From Mobula hypostoma (taxonomy: Eukaryota): a stretch of DNA of 64,000 bases. A model generated the notes under the pieces. That model made no database searches and was not told where the DNA came from. It was given only the letters and a program-made list of their open reading frames with translations. Location: positions 157,668,001 to 157,732,000 of the forward strand of contig NC_086097.1 in NCBI RefSeq assembly GCF_963921235.1, written 5' to 3'. The stretch's first letter is position 1. Each line of letters opens with the position of its first letter. The position numbers were made by a program, and so were the translations under genes. Shown here one piece after another: positions 41,820 to 46,975 of this stretch.

Positions 41820-42705
41820 CATTGGTGGCTGCATTGTTGTTGCTTCACACAACCATGCTGTGCTTGTCAATTTTGTCTCCAACTTCTAGCCTGCTCTTAA
41901 ATTCACTTGCTCCATTTCTGACACCTCCCTCTCCTTTCCATGCACCCACCACTTTTTGTGTAAAAAATCCTAGCTCTGACATCCCCCTAAACTTTCCTCC
42001 CATCACCTTAAAATGATGTCCTCTTGTATAAGCCATTTCTATGCTGGGGGAAAGGCACTGGCTGTCCACTCTAATGAGGCCTCATATCATCCTATACACA
42101 TCTGTCACATCACCTCTCATCCTCCTTCACTCCAAAGAGAAAATCCCTAGTTCGCTCAACCTTTCCTCATATGACACGCTCTACTCTGCATCCTCTCTAA
42201 AGCTTCCACATCATTCCTAGAGTGAGGAGACCAGAACTGGACAAAAGACAGCAAGTGTGGTCTGACCAGAGTTTTATATACATAACTGCACGTGCCTCTT
42301 GCGCTCAGTTCCCTGATTAACAAAGGCAAACACACCACACATCCTCTTAACCAGCCCATCAACTTGTGCGGCAACTTTGAGGGACAAATGGATATGGGTC
42401 TCAAGATCCCTCTGTTCCTCCACAGAACTAAGAATCCTCTCATTCTAATCTTGTTTTACAGCTGCGCGGACCAACCATTGCTCTGAGCAGGAATTTTTTA
42501 CCGGCCTGAAAACTGCGTGACACGTTATATAAAAGAAAATTCTAGCTGCACAGAAAGAAAGGCTATGTGGAAGGGAGCATTTTAGTTACTGTGCAGCCAT
42601 GTACCTCTGCAGCTAAGAGGAAAGAGTGCTCCTGTATTCTGCCTTCAAGTTCAACCTCTCAAAGTGGATCACTTCACAATGTTCCAACTGAACCCCATCT
42701 GCCAT
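41820..42705 (-). mobile_element. Degraded CR1 LINE fragments
   Basis: ORFs YKTLVRPHLLSFVQFWSPH; TRGHHFKVMGGKFRG..FFTQKVVGAW; LEHCEVIHFERLNLKAEY; interrupted at about 42430-42630. Confidence 0.8.
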
Positions 42706-42709
42706 GTCT

Positions 42710-43500
42710 GTGACAGATGGTGGCGAGGAGGCACACAGGAGTGAGATATACCGGCTGATTGGTTCAAACAACACCCAGCATTGAATGTCAGAAAGAGCAA
42801 GGAATTGATTGTGGACTTCAGGAACAGGAAGCAAAGGGACCACACAAGTCCTCATCAAGGGGTCAGCGGTGCAAAGAGTGAGCAATCTCAAGTTCCTGGT
42901 CGTCAACATCTCTGAAGATCTATCCTGGGCCCAACATATTGATGCAATTATAAAGAAGGCACATCAGCAGCTATATTTCATGAGGGGTTTTAGGAGATTC
43001 AGTATGTCACCAAATACTCGCAAATCTCTTCAGATGTACAGTGGAGAACATTCTAACTGGTTGCATCACCATCTGGTACGGAGAGGTGACCGCAGAGTAT
43101 CAGAAAAAGCTTCAAAGCATAGTAAATTCAGCCAGCTCCATCATGGACACCAGCCTCAGAAAGGTGGCACCCATCATTAAGGACCCCCACCACACAGGAC
43201 ATGCCCTCTTCTCATTGCTGCCCTCAGAGGGGAGGGACAAGAGACTGAAGACACACACTCAGCATTCTAGGAACAGCTTCTTCCCCTCCGCTATTGGATT
43301 TCACATTTCTGAATGGTCAATGAACACAACCACACTATCTTTGCAACACACATCAAAGTTGCTGGTGAACGCAGCAGGCCAGGCAGCATCTCTAGGAAGA
43401 GGTACAGTCGACGTTTCAGGCCGAGACCCTTCGTCAGGTCTGCCTATCTTTGCTCTCTTTTTGTACTACATATGTGTATATATACTGTATATATATTTCT
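42710..43500 (+). mobile_element. Rex1/Babar 3' portion
   Basis: VQRVSNLKFLVVNISEDLSWAQHIDAIIKKAHQQLYF; ENILTGCITIWYG; IIKDPHHTGHALFSLLPS; RNSFFPSAI. Confidence 0.85.
43345..43443 (-). mobile_element. Penelope-type terminal fragment with a near-intact minimal type I hammerhead, 10-bp TSD
   Basis: TSD ctatctttgc (43335-43344, 43444-43453); minus strand CAGAC-CUGACGA-AGGGUCUCGGCCU-GAAAC-GUC-GACUG. Confidence 0.82.
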
Positions 43501-43555
43501 AGTTACCAAGACACTCTTGTGTCCCCTTCTAGCTCTCCTTATCCTATACCTTATG

Positions 43556-45081
43556 ACAAGCATGTGAAGAAGTGGCTTGGAGTACCGAGCAGCCTCACCA
43601 ATGTTGCAATCCACAGTAGCCAGACAAAGCTTACCATCCCAGTGCAATCCCTTGTTGAGGAGGTCAAGGTTGCCAAAGTAAGATCATTCTTGATGCTTTG
43701 AGACTCAAAAGACCCTGTCATCAAGAGCACCCAGCCGGATGTGAGATCAGGCAGGAAGTGGTCAGCCCATGTAGCAGTTGATGAGGCAGAGTCTAGATTG
43801 AAGCACAAGGAGATGGTTGGAATTATCCAGCTAGGCCGCCAGGGACTTAGATGGACAACCTACAAGTGGTGGTCATCTTCTACAGGTAAGGAGCGCCGTG
43901 AGCTTGTAACACAAGAAATACGAGAGGTAGAAGAGAGAAGAGGTTAGCTAAAACAGCTGGCCTGACCAAACAAGGGGTTTGGACTTGGTGGGAATGTGTT
44001 GAACAGCAACATCTATCTTGGAATGTTCTCTGGCAGATGGAAACGTTCCGCATCTCTTTTCTATGCAGAGCAGCGTACGATCTGCTCCCAACACCTGCCA
44101 ACCTCATCACCTGGTATGAAGATAAGCCAGACAGGTGTGCTGCTTGTGGCGAGAAGGGAACACTTCAACATATCTTGAATGCGTGCAGAGTCAATCTTTC
44201 CAGCGGCATGTACACTTGGAGACATAACAACATTCTCTAAGTTGTAACAGAAGCAGCTGAGCAGAGAGTACTGCAGCACAACTTATCTCATGCCCCATGC
44301 TGCACGAAACATCGCATATCATTTGTGAAAGAAGGCTCCAAGTCAAGGGTGTACAGCGCAGGCTCACAATCAAGCATACTTTCTTCAGCCAATGATTGGT
44401 GTGTCAAGGCTGACCTGGACGGGAAAGGCAGTTTCCTGGAGCAAATAGCTTTCACAACATTGCGTCCAGATATAATCGTATGGTCTGACACCAGTAGAGA
44501 AGTGGTTATTGGTGAACTCACAGTCCCCTGGGAAGACAACGTTGATGAAGCCCATGAGCGCAAGTTAACCAAGTATGCATAATTAAGATCAGAGTGCAAA
44601 GACAGAGTGTGGAAGGTCTCATGCTATCCATTCAAAGTAGGTTGCCGTGGGTTTATTTCGTTCACTTTCCAGAAGTGGCTGCGTGACCTTGGCTTCACTA
44701 GAAGGGAGATCAAGTCAACCAGCAGGCCTGTAGCTGAGGCAGCAGAGAAAGGATCAGCATGGGTGTGGACCAAGTATGTCCAGAGGGGCAGATAGTCAGA
44801 CAGTGTATACATATCTTGTAAACCCTTCAGTAGTTGCATAGACACCTGAAGAGCAGACTATCTGTTGGATGGAAGTGACCAACAACTCTGATAGAGGCAA
44901 ATGCCAAGTTTTTAAGCTCACCAGTGGGAGGTGATGCTTTAGCACTGCTGGCCCACCACCTCGAGGGAGTCTTGATCATAAGCTGGCCGAAACTCATGAA
45001 GACAGGTGGCAGATCAACTGATGATCCCACTGGTGATAGTACAGGACAGTTAACATCTTAGTCCAACTGTATTTTGAACTC
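43556..45081 (+). mobile_element. 5'-truncated HERO-clade non-LTR retrotransposon (restriction-like endonuclease type)
   Basis: Frameshifted ORF: KKWLGVPSSLTNVAIH...GRKWSAHVAV.EAESRLKHKE..G; CCHC knuckle CAACGEKGTLQHILNAC; YTWRHNNIL; PD-(D/E)xK nuclease LRPDIIVWS....VIGELTVPWE...EAHERKLTKY; VGCRGF; stop at 44795; 3' UTR; 9-bp TSD taccttatg (43547-43555, 45082-45090). Confidence 0.9.
44956..45031 (+). ncRNA. Putative non-circularly permuted (pseudoknotted) hammerhead ribozyme in the HERO 3' UTR
   Basis: GAGU-C (44967-44971) pairs with GAA-ACUC (44989-44995); UUGAUC (44972-44977) pairs with GAUCAA (45012-45017), which directly precedes CUGAUGA (45018-45024); weak stem II UGG/CCA; outer helix CCACCU/AGGUGG. 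Confidence 0.6.
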
Positions 45082-46975
45082 TACCTTATGGCTATCTTAT
45101 ATCTCTCAAGAGCCCTATCAGATCCTGGCTTCCTAAACCTTAAGGACATTTCTATCTTTCTCTTGGCTAAATATTCCATTTCTCAAGTTTCCTTCACCTG
45201 GCAGGTCTTAATTTCTTAACATTTCTTCACATAAAAATTCTGAAAATGATCAGTCAAGGATGCATTAATGGAGGTCTATAGGGAAAGGATGCATCAATGT
45301 TGCACAACATTGTAACCTTGTAATGTCTGATGAAGTCAGACTTGATATTTTGTTTAGTTTGGGTCACCCTATTATAGCACTGGAATGAGTGCAGAAAGCT
45401 TTACAGTCGATGTTGCCAAGACTTGAGGAACTGAGTTATATGGAGAGGTAAGACAGGCTGGGCTTTCACTCCATGGGGCATAGGGGACTGTGGAGTAATA
45501 ACATAGAGGATTGTAAAATTGTGAAGGGCCTGGATAGGGTGAACCGTCTTTTCAAAGATCAAATTTATTATCAAAATATGAATATCATATACAACCTTGA
45601 GAGTCAACTTCTTGCGGGCACTCAAAACAAGGAAACACAATAGAATTTATTAAAAACACACCCACACACACAAGACCACCACATATCCCATTTACAAAAG
45701 AGGACAAATCATGTGAATAATTCAAAAAAAAGTAAACAAAAACACATGGAGTTCACAGCTGCCGAGTCCATTCAGTGCTTAGGCAAGTGGTGCTTGTCCA
45801 GGAGCCTAAAGGCTGCAGAGCAACAATTGCTCTTGAACCTGGTGGAGTGGGACTCTAGACTCCCTGCACCTCCTGCCCAAAGTTGTAACGAGAAGAGAGG
45901 AAGACCAGTCAAATGCAGGCAGACATCGTTGAACACCTCTTCATTTTAGACTCTCGTCCGCAATGATTTTAATCTTTTTTTTTCCCAGGGGTGGGAAAAT
46001 TGAAAACTAGAGGATATAGTTTTTATATTAGAGTTGAAAGGTTTAATAATCTGAGGGGGAAAATTGTCAACATCCATCCACACAACAAGTTGATGAACAT
46101 TTCCAGGCCTTTCCACAGAATAAGTAAGAAAGACAGAGAAGCAAAGCACGACAACTTCCGCAAAAATTTATTTCTAGATGTACAGCAAATGGTGTCCTGT
46201 TTAACACTAACATTGGAAAGGGACTTTCCTTTATCAAATTGCTTTTTGATGATAAGAAGGAAGTTGCAGAAAATTTACTTAGGAGTTGCAAACAGTAATC
46301 TATGCCCAAGAACAGCATGGTCTCCAAAAGGAACATACGATAGACCTGCCAACAACTATGGTTGTCCTTGATAAAAGAAACAGAGGGGAAAAAAACTGCT
46401 CCCAAAATGCCCTTTTTGGATCATTACTGTTAATTGTATCAATCGTGTAAATGCAGTTGGTGTGTACCAGTACTAAAGGCATGAAAAGATGGTATGTCAC
46501 AGAATCGGGTGCTCTGGCCTCAGTTTATCACAGATAATGTAAATGTCCATGATGGAGGTACTGAAGATATGAAGAAATTAAATACTGAAGTATTTGCATT
46601 ACGATCAGAACGACCAAGATCTTATTAAATGAATGAACAGACTGAAGAAACTGAGTGGCTGATTGCTGCTCCTAATTCATATTTTTTATATTGATATTGT
46701 CTCAGATCCTGTTGAAGGACTGGAGAGGCAAATCTCTCATGCAAAATCTCAGCAAGTCTGAACTCCACCAATGATCAATATGGGCCCAGCCACAAGGTGA
46801 ATTGATGCACTCAGCCTTCCAAACCTAATAATGTTCCTCAGGTATCCTCATTTGATAGTATATGTAGAAGTCTGGGACTTAAATTAGTTTATTTTGGAAC
46901 TGATGGCAAAAGCAAGATCTGCATATCATTGCTATCCATTGTAAAAATAATGCAAGTCACATATACTACCCCATA

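What the first reader, a model, noticed from the sequence alone, without database searches (positions are those of the whole stretch)
44956..45031. Rearranged (pseudoknotted, non-circularly permuted) hammerhead ribozyme in the 3' UTR of a HERO retrotransposon
Seen in sequence: about 170 nt after the HERO stop codon the hammerhead parts occur in an order that no type I/II/III circular permutation gives. From 5' to 3': stem III strand GAGU plus cleavage base C44971, stem I strand UUGAUC, a short linker, stem II strand (GCUGGCC), GAAA-CUC closing stem III (4 bp), an outer helix CCACCU/AGGUGG, then GAUCAA (perfect 6-bp stem I partner) directly followed by CUGAUGA and UCCCAC. The CUGAUGA strand therefore has to reach back into the loop closed by stem III, forming a pseudoknot. 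Established: the hammerhead core consensus is CUGANGA/GAAA/UH; RLE elements such as R2 use HDV-like ribozymes at their 5' ends; permuted hammerheads have been reported, but I cannot confirm from here whether this HERO-linked instance is catalogued. Inference: a 3'-UTR ribozyme could define or regulate the element's RNA 3' end. This copy retains 110 nt downstream of the predicted cut up to the TSD, so the template that integrated was uncleaved or religated, which suggests slow or regulated cleavage. Caveat: stem II is weak here (CCA/UGG with two mismatches next to the core).
Basis: partly seen in the sequence, partly recalled or inferred. Interest (0 to 1): 0.85.

Follow-up and report, generated by a model that had tools for sequence, protein, structure and literature searches.

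The report
Split-core hammerhead ribozyme in HERO retrotransposons
The tail of this jumping gene, and of dozens of distant relatives, keeps every catalytic letter of a hammerhead ribozyme inside a conserved six-helix pairing pattern whose core strand is broken in two, so it is likely a new form of self-cutting RNA that would let the element's RNA be cut and rejoined into a circle before it is copied into the genome.

Summary
Across 30 distant HERO-type tails the strand after CUGANGA does not pair with the strand before GAAA (46% paired, shuffle level). It pairs with an upstream strand (helix A). The true stem II partner lies upstream (44950-54), behind a hairpin set flush between the two. The six-helix model covaries strongly (81% paired, score 0.61 against 0.10-0.15 when slid). 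A search by helices alone recovers exact NUH/GAAA/CUGANGA in 33 of 36 hits. So the core is split between A9 and G10.1 by a four-way junction, which none of the six published block orders allows (PMC10085705). The motif is in 54 of 76 tails, on most branches of the tree. All 30 copies with a 5' UTR are partial tandems with one fixed junction, which fits a rejoined circular template. Cleavage is untested, and no genomic copy starts or ends at the cut. This scan saw another copy earlier (e1-8034208) and called it non-catalytic; the upstream partner answers that objection. Ten literature searches found no HERO hammerhead.

The parts
43556..44795 (+). 5'-truncated, decayed HERO-type ORF (end of RT, CCHC knuckle, restriction-like endonuclease), stop at 44793-95
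   Evidence: about 94-95% identical to intact family copies; 44% amino-acid identity to Tetraodon polyprotein AAN12398
44918..44929 (+). helix A, 5' strand
   Evidence: 12 of 12 pairs with 45025-36; covaries
44930..44949 (+). hairpin B, flush between helix A and stem II; this copy has G>A at 44934
44950..44954 (+). true stem II 5' strand; G44950 is the G10.1 equivalent
   Evidence: first pair G-C in 28 of 32 and G-U in 2
44956..44961 (+). 5' strand of helix P (stem I-II interaction helix)
44966..44971 (+). stem III strand, U16.1 and C17; predicted cut after 44971
   Evidence: the cut site is inferred from the hammerhead core
44972..44977 (+). stem I 3' strand
   Evidence: 6 of 6 pairs with 45012-17; 93% of cells paired across relatives
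44984..44988 (+). stem II 3' strand; this copy has G>T at 44984, breaking the fifth pair
44989..44996 (+). G12-A13-A14-A15.1 and stem III strand; this copy has C>A at 44996
45004..45009 (+). 3' strand of helix P
45012..45024 (+). stem I 5' strand and core C3-A9 (CUGAUGA)
45025..45036 (+). helix A, 3' strand, starting at the first base after A9
   Evidence: first pair formed in 28 of 32; the position before it in 0 of 32
45037..45081 (+). rest of the 3' tail up to the insertion end
   Evidence: 30 of 30 copies share it and diverge at 45076-45090
45082..45090 (+). target-site duplication, right copy (left copy 43547-43555)

Best explanation
The 3' UTR of HERO-type retrotransposons carries a conserved six-helix RNA structure with a complete hammerhead core, which likely self-cleaves after C17 (C44971 here) and likely lets the element's RNA be cut to unit length and rejoined into a circular template. 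Shown by covariation: the order is helix A 5' - hairpin B - stem II 5' - P - stem III/UH/stem I - stem II/GAAA/stem III - P - stem I/CUGANGA - helix A 3'. A9 and G10.1 are therefore on different strands, joined through a junction with no unpaired linkers. Inferred: helix A stacks on hairpin B as in a four-way junction, which would place G10.1-C11.1 under the A9-G12 pair and rebuild the active site. Inferred role: a partial-tandem copy is transcribed through two ribozymes; cutting at both frees a monomer whose two ends are the two halves of one ribozyme, held by helices A, II, P and III; joining (by the ribozyme or an RtcB-type ligase) gives a circle; the element's protein primes inside the circle at the fixed tail end and copies more than one round. 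That would leave an uncut ribozyme at the 3' end and a variable piece of tail at the 5' end of each full-length insertion. My odds: conserved structure 0.97, self-cleavage 0.8, circle role about 0.45. The confidence figure is for the split-core ribozyme; the circle is the likeliest of three roles. The window's copy is a truncated relic with three weakening changes.
For: Structure: sequence-only alignment of 30 tails, 81.0% of cells paired against 54.7% shuffled (0 of 500), covariation 0.614 against 0.097-0.147 when slid; 31 of 33 pairs show two-sided changes. Junction: with helix A and stem II picked independently, hairpin B closes flush in 18 of 25, against 0-3 of 25 when slid by 1-3 nt. Catalytic signature: a helix-only scan gave 36 hits in 75 tails, 33 with exact NUH, GAAA and CUGANGA, none with G17 in register; position 7 varies freely (U19, A6, C5, G2 of 32) and G10.1-C11.1 is kept in 28 of 32, as in the consensus of PMC3088659. 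Controls: core in 47 of 76 tails, 0 of 76 reverse strands, 0 of 76 ORF ends, 0 of 1520 shuffles. Tolerance of the split point: HRIMA-1 ribozymes carry an extra U there and cleave (PMC10085705). Role: 30 of 30 copies with a 5' UTR are preceded by their own tail at one junction with no added or lost bases; 13 of 30 pieces run through the cut intact; the insertion's own tail is the closest of 27 to its upstream piece in 6 of 18 and in the top two in 9 of 18. Tail-to-head junctions also appear in other families. Precedent for ribozyme-made circles: PMC7229834, PMC6765202.
Against: No cleavage was tested. No paper I saw shows activity with A9 and G10.1 on separate strands, and PMC10085705 assumes block C cannot be interrupted. 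No genomic junction at the cut: 0 true 5' junctions (the single hit L152 is unrelated DNA) against 5 at a control site, and 0 3' junctions. In 8 of 18 partial tandems the own tail is no closer than others (ranks 12-18, and one interrupted tail at 27), against a strict same-molecule origin. With about 28 bp holding the products together, swapping partners to close a circle may be slow (inference). One tail (L081, read by eye) has G17 and a broken first stem II pair; 10 tails long enough to judge showed no motif. The base before G10.1 could pair with G12 in 24 of 32, a possible inactive fold. Shuffle and slide controls do not correct for phylogeny.
Confidence: 0.72

Rival explanations
1. The fold descends from a hammerhead but no longer cuts; it is the structure that the element's protein binds to start reverse transcription (the reading of earlier finding e1-8034208).
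For: It lies in the 3' UTR, where R2-type proteins bind (PMC6765202 passages). All genomic copies are uncut and none ends or starts at the site. The strand after CUGANGA is indeed held in helix A.
Against: Stem II does form, with an upstream strand (85.9% paired, four pairs with two-sided changes). Conservation follows catalytic rules letter by letter (free N7, H17, G10.1-C11.1) while helix sequences turn over at 54% mean identity. A binding site has no evident reason to follow these rules on nearly every branch. Binding and cutting are not exclusive.
Confidence: 0.15
2. It is an active ribozyme whose job is 5'-end trimming: in read-through transcripts of tandem copies the upstream ribozyme frees the downstream unit, as the HDV-like ribozyme does for R2, while the unit's own 3' ribozyme is slow or blocked by protein. 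The RNA stays linear.
For: Tandems are general. 17 of 30 upstream pieces stop between the cut and the tail end. Contig L037 starts one base into the predicted 3' product. L122 and L123, whose piece lacks the ribozyme, share about 970 bp of upstream flank.
Against: 13 of 30 pieces run through the cut. No 5' junction at the cut, whereas R2 5' junctions follow its cut (recalled; abstract of PMC3774820). Without regeneration the upstream pieces would shrink each generation, yet one exceeds 1,400 nt.
Confidence: 0.25
3. It is an ordinary type-SGC hammerhead with a weak stem II after CUGAUGA, perhaps reached by a switch from the helix A fold.
For: Block order S-G-C and a P helix as in type SGC.
Against: That stem is at shuffle level: 46.3% against 43.2% (83 of 500), covariation 0.199 against 0.178, first pair formed in 3 of 30; no slide of up to 3 columns gives more than 60%.
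Confidence: 0.03

Closest known systems
Type-SGC (HRIMA-1 and variant) and type-CSG non-circularly permuted hammerheads, Eckert et al. 2023, PMC10085705
   Same: Same connectivity class (circular order C-S-G), short stem I-to-II linker (mostly 3-5 nt), a helix joining the outer sides of stems I and II, pseudoknotted core, and a break point where HRIMA-1 has an extra U.
   Different: Block C is split: the stem II strand lies about 70 nt upstream of CUGANGA, joined through helix A and hairpin B. The paper's descriptors need CUGAUGA-(U)-G followed by stem II and cannot match. [quoted passage not shown] Those were shown to cleave; this is untested.
Classical type I/II/III hammerheads (consensus in Perreault et al. 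2011, PMC3088659)
   Same: All core letters C3-A9, G12-A15.1, U16.1, H17 and stems I-III.
   Different: Non-circular order and two extra helices inside the core. The core insertions described in the sections I read are of 1-2 nt. Rfam 15 gave no hammerhead match at E up to 10.
Hammerheads of Penelope-like elements and retrozymes (PMC7229834, PMC6765202)
   Same: Ribozyme in a repeated end of a retroelement found as tandems; circles shown for retrozymes and proposed for Penelope-like elements.
   Different: Those are type I or III hammerheads in other element classes. Here the host is an autonomous element with a restriction-like endonuclease.
HDV-like ribozymes of R2 and L1Tc
   Same: Self-cleaving RNA in a non-LTR element; R2 is in the same superfamily.
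   Different: Other ribozyme class, at the 5' end. Here the motif is in the 3' UTR, about 110 nt before the insertion end.
Zebulon / HEROTn of Tetraodon (identity of AAN12398 and BAC82599, and the 'partial tandem' description, are recalled; the paper is not held)
   Same: 44% amino-acid identity over 472 residues; in the tree AAN12398 sits among motif-bearing families; partial tandems are seen here directly.
   Different: Its own 3' UTR could not be fetched; I found no report of a ribozyme in it.

Membership tests
Hammerhead ribozyme class | Core letters CUGANGA, GAAA, UH | tested here: met
   window copy intact; 29 of 30 family copies; 33 of 36 helix-only hits
Hammerhead ribozyme class | Stems I, II and III paired right next to the core, with covariation | tested here: met
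   93.1%, 85.9% and 98.9% of cells paired, two-sided changes in each
Hammerhead ribozyme class | A helix or contact bringing stems I and II together | tested here: met
   helix P, 76.7% paired, 5 of 5 pairs with two-sided changes; its role is by analogy to PMC10085705
Hammerhead ribozyme class | Site-specific self-cleavage 3' of H17, lost with G5A | not testable with these tools
   needs in vitro transcription
Type I/II/III (circular permutations) | Block order CGS, GSC or SCG without pseudoknots in the core | tested here: not met
   order is S-G-C with crossing stems I, II, III; no Rfam match
Type-SGC hammerhead (Eckert 2023) | Block order S, G, C | tested here: met
   47 of 76 tails, 0 in controls
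Type-SGC hammerhead (Eckert 2023) | Stem II strand follows CUGANGA directly (0-2 nt inserted) | tested here: not met
   46% paired, shuffle level; the partner is upstream
HERO clade (R2 superfamily) | Single ORF with RT, CCHC knuckle and restriction-like endonuclease | tested here: met
   zf-RVT hit E 5e-4; homologues carry PF00078; CCHC and PD..D-type motif read from the translation (motif recalled)
HERO clade (R2 superfamily) | Groups with named HERO elements in an RT tree | tested here: inconclusive
   groups with AAN12398, whose cluster holds BAC82599; their names Zebulon and HEROTn are recalled; quick tree of the C-terminal half without R2, R4 or NeSL outgroups

The most novel reading that the evidence does not exclude
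HERO retrotransposons carry a seventh natural hammerhead topology, with the catalytic strand split between A9 and G10.1 and rebuilt by a four-way junction, and use it to cut and rejoin their RNA into a circle, so that an autonomous R2-superfamily element moves through a circular RNA template.
Probability: 0.42. Interest if true: 0.93.

Novelty: new variant of a known kind. Interest (0 to 1): 0.86.

Why it matters
It breaks the stated rule that the CUGANGA strand and its stem II strand cannot be separated, which explains why descriptor and Rfam searches miss it and suggests more split ribozymes are hidden. It would be the first non-circularly permuted hammerhead family in genomes of known eukaryotes (against PMC10085705) and a ribozyme at the 3' end of an R2-superfamily element. 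It makes a direct test of why these elements insert as partial tandems. HERO elements are among candidates screened for gene insertion (PMC13580325 passage), where an unnoticed self-cutting 3' UTR would matter for template design. The junction is also a natural place to graft a sensor onto a hammerhead core.

Tried and rejected
Rfam: no hammerhead match. RNA evidence: no listed holder is on record as RNA, and all are contigs. The 10- to 50-fold depth jump near 44993 looked like a cut product but comes from an LTR family that holds the last 85 nt of the tail, so it is no evidence. Searches listed no place where many molecules begin or end. Genomic junctions at the cut: none. Contigs L051 and L067 end exactly at H17 and L037 starts one base into the 3' product; molecule type is unknown and assembly breaks can mimic this, so I count it as a weak hint only. 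The lookup of contigs for named proteins is closed, so 3' UTRs of named species were not read directly. The careful tree did not finish; the quick tree is used. Papers not held: the Zebulon paper and the 2012 hammerhead review. Literature searches with no HERO hammerhead or split core; the library lacks most subscription papers and Repbase reports.

Full report
Observation. The insertion is a 5'-truncated copy from about 43556 to 45081 with a 9-bp target-site duplication. It belongs to a family of more than a thousand copies in this 3.5-Gb genome: 1,658 candidates, and 1,415 pattern matches against 236 for the reversed pattern. An intact 504-residue frame from copy L011 finds 266 long homologues at E up to 1e-30; named ones come from bony fish, lamprey, lancelet and bivalves. 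It is 44% identical to the Tetraodon polyprotein AAN12398, which I recall as Zebulon; its cluster holds BAC82599, which I recall as HEROTn. Rfam gives no hammerhead.

The correction. Thirty family copies show that the window's copy differs from most at 44934, 44984 and 44996. In typical copies the five bases before GAAA pair fully with 44950-54, upstream of the cut site. The twelve bases after CUGAUGA pair fully with 44918-29, and a hairpin fills 44930-49 exactly. Energy folding of two typical copies gives these three helices (z -3.5 and -3.1; the window copy -0.9).

Relatives. An alignment search of metagenome contigs returned 80 loci at 31-58% protein identity. I examined the tails of 73 whose match reached near the C-terminus, plus L001, L005 and L120. 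The S-G-C core (stems I and III meeting at one UH) was in 47 of 76 tails, 0 of 76 reverse strands, 0 of 76 ORF ends and 0 of 1,520 shuffles; 4 more passed with relaxed rules and 3 more with wider limits, 54 of 76 in all. Of the other 22, 8 show a partial or decayed motif by eye (L038, L051, L052, L067, L081, L091, L107, L120), 4 are too short, and 10 show none. The 51 motifs reduce to 32 at under 80% identity, mean 54%. On a quick protein tree the motif is on nearly every branch, including deep ones; it is missing from the outermost three rows and from a few others. L040, which has the full motif, is nearly identical in protein to a scallop record (P0095).

Covariation. To avoid circularity I aligned 30 of the 32 by sequence alone (two with long B arms left out). 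My six-helix model has 81.0% of cells paired against 54.7% in shuffles (0 of 500) and a covariation score of 0.614 against 0.097-0.147 when slid. By helix: A 71.9%, B 70.4%, II 85.9%, P 76.7%, III 98.9%, I 93.1%; A and B suffer from misalignment around variable loops. The region ends were set from my model, and the controls do not correct for descent. With helix A and stem II picked independently, hairpin B closes flush in 18 of 25 cases and in at most 3 of 25 when slid; 7 of 32 were left out because the pick for helix A fell elsewhere. Several families have long, branched B arms, so only the junction is fixed.

Is it catalytic? A scan that asked only for helices at the model's spacings, with no core letters, hit 36 of 75 tails: 33 had exact NUH, GAAA and CUGANGA, 2 had G12A, and 1 was the same motif slipped by one base (some hits are near-identical). 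Position 7 takes all four bases, and the upstream strand starts with G10.1 paired to C11.1 in 28 of 32. This is the consensus given in PMC3088659 (passages and section 8 read). One decayed-looking tail, L081, has G17. Cleavage itself is untested.

Comparison. Eckert et al. 2023 (PMC10085705; parts 1-6 of 8 of the main text and parts 1 and 8 of 42 of the supplement read; figures and alignments not seen) define three blocks that 'cannot be interrupted' and six orders. [quoted passage not shown] Their oligos and descriptors show an extra U between A9 and G10.1, followed by stem II, one base and the I-II helix, the same run as 44949-44961 here. The HERO form is thus their connectivity class opened at that U, with two helices put in and the RNA ends inside helix A. 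It works like a type-SGC/CSG hammerhead by anatomy but fails membership on block C. Unseen supplement alignments could in principle hold a similar RNA, but the descriptors exclude it. Ten searches found no HERO hammerhead or split core; most subscription papers are not covered.

Role. Of 30 copies that hold the 5' UTR, all are preceded by the element's own tail (26 by BLAST, 4 short pieces by eye) at a junction whose 18 letters keep one register in 30 of 30. Pieces run from about 15 to over 1,400 nt; 13 pass through the cut intact, 17 stop short, none starts at it. Pattern searches found no true junction at the cut on either side. In 18 testable insertions the own tail is the closest of 27 to the upstream piece in 6, second in 3, fourth in 1 and unremarkable in 8. 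Tail-to-head junctions also show in about ten metagenome families. A fixed junction argues against a fresh end-to-end jump at each insertion, which in R2 adds untemplated bases (recalled). A circle closed at the ribozyme explains the uncut tails, the fixed junction and the renewal of long upstream pieces, as for retrozymes (PMC7229834 and PMC6765202, passages). Read-through of tandems or jumps between RNAs are not excluded and may account for the 8 mismatched cases. RNA data were not informative.

Earlier work in this scan. Finding e1-8034208 saw helix A on another copy and concluded that the RNA does not cut. I confirm helix A, but stem II forms with another strand, so that objection does not hold. 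PMC10294476, PMC7650587, PMC13580325 and PMC2684134 were read as passages for HERO context only.

Verdict. A real, clade-wide RNA structure; a new hammerhead topology; likely self-cleaving (0.8); role most likely cut-and-rejoin to a circular template (0.45). Interest 0.86.

Noticed in passing
G000, at least 2,679 places; L153-L175: An LTR retroelement family (about 900-bp direct repeats about 4.1 kb apart, TG...CA ends) holds the last 85 nt or so of the HERO tail, apparently antisense at the start of its LTR. The core there reads CUGCUGA, CUGUUGA or further changed in 20 of 20 copies. Described only.
   Followed up: partly
L122 and L123 (G000:C50 and C40): Two full-length copies share about 970 bp of upstream flank at 96% identity but have different 3' flanks and are no closer to each other than other copies: possible 5' transduction or gene conversion.
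   Followed up: partly
L120 (G000:C1:153168417-153171454): A second, distant HERO family in the same genome (38-49% protein identity) with a decayed copy of the same motif.
   Followed up: partly
L051 end, L067 end, L037 start: Two contigs end exactly at the predicted cut base and one starts one base into the 3' product; molecule type unknown.
   Followed up: partly
L031:3120-3145 and metagenome loci such as L036, L039, L040, L043, L056, L058: A short 5' UTR motif, repeated a few times, is conserved at the head of distant HERO families right after the tandem junction; possible promoter or protein-binding site.
   Followed up: no
L046, L060, L066, L077, L045, L111: Arm B is 50-95 nt or longer and branched in some families while the junction is kept; in L045 and L111 the motif lies about 660 nt after the ORF.
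   Followed up: partly
L114-L119: An unrelated repeat family has GAAA and CUGAUGA close together but no HERO protein match; not tested with the full descriptor.
   Followed up: partly
window 42700-43300: A decayed fragment of another LINE (CR1/L2-like reading, from recall) lies just upstream of the HERO insertion.
   Followed up: no
L014: A copy with an internal deletion that joins the N-terminal part in frame to the endonuclease end (303-residue open frame).
   Followed up: no
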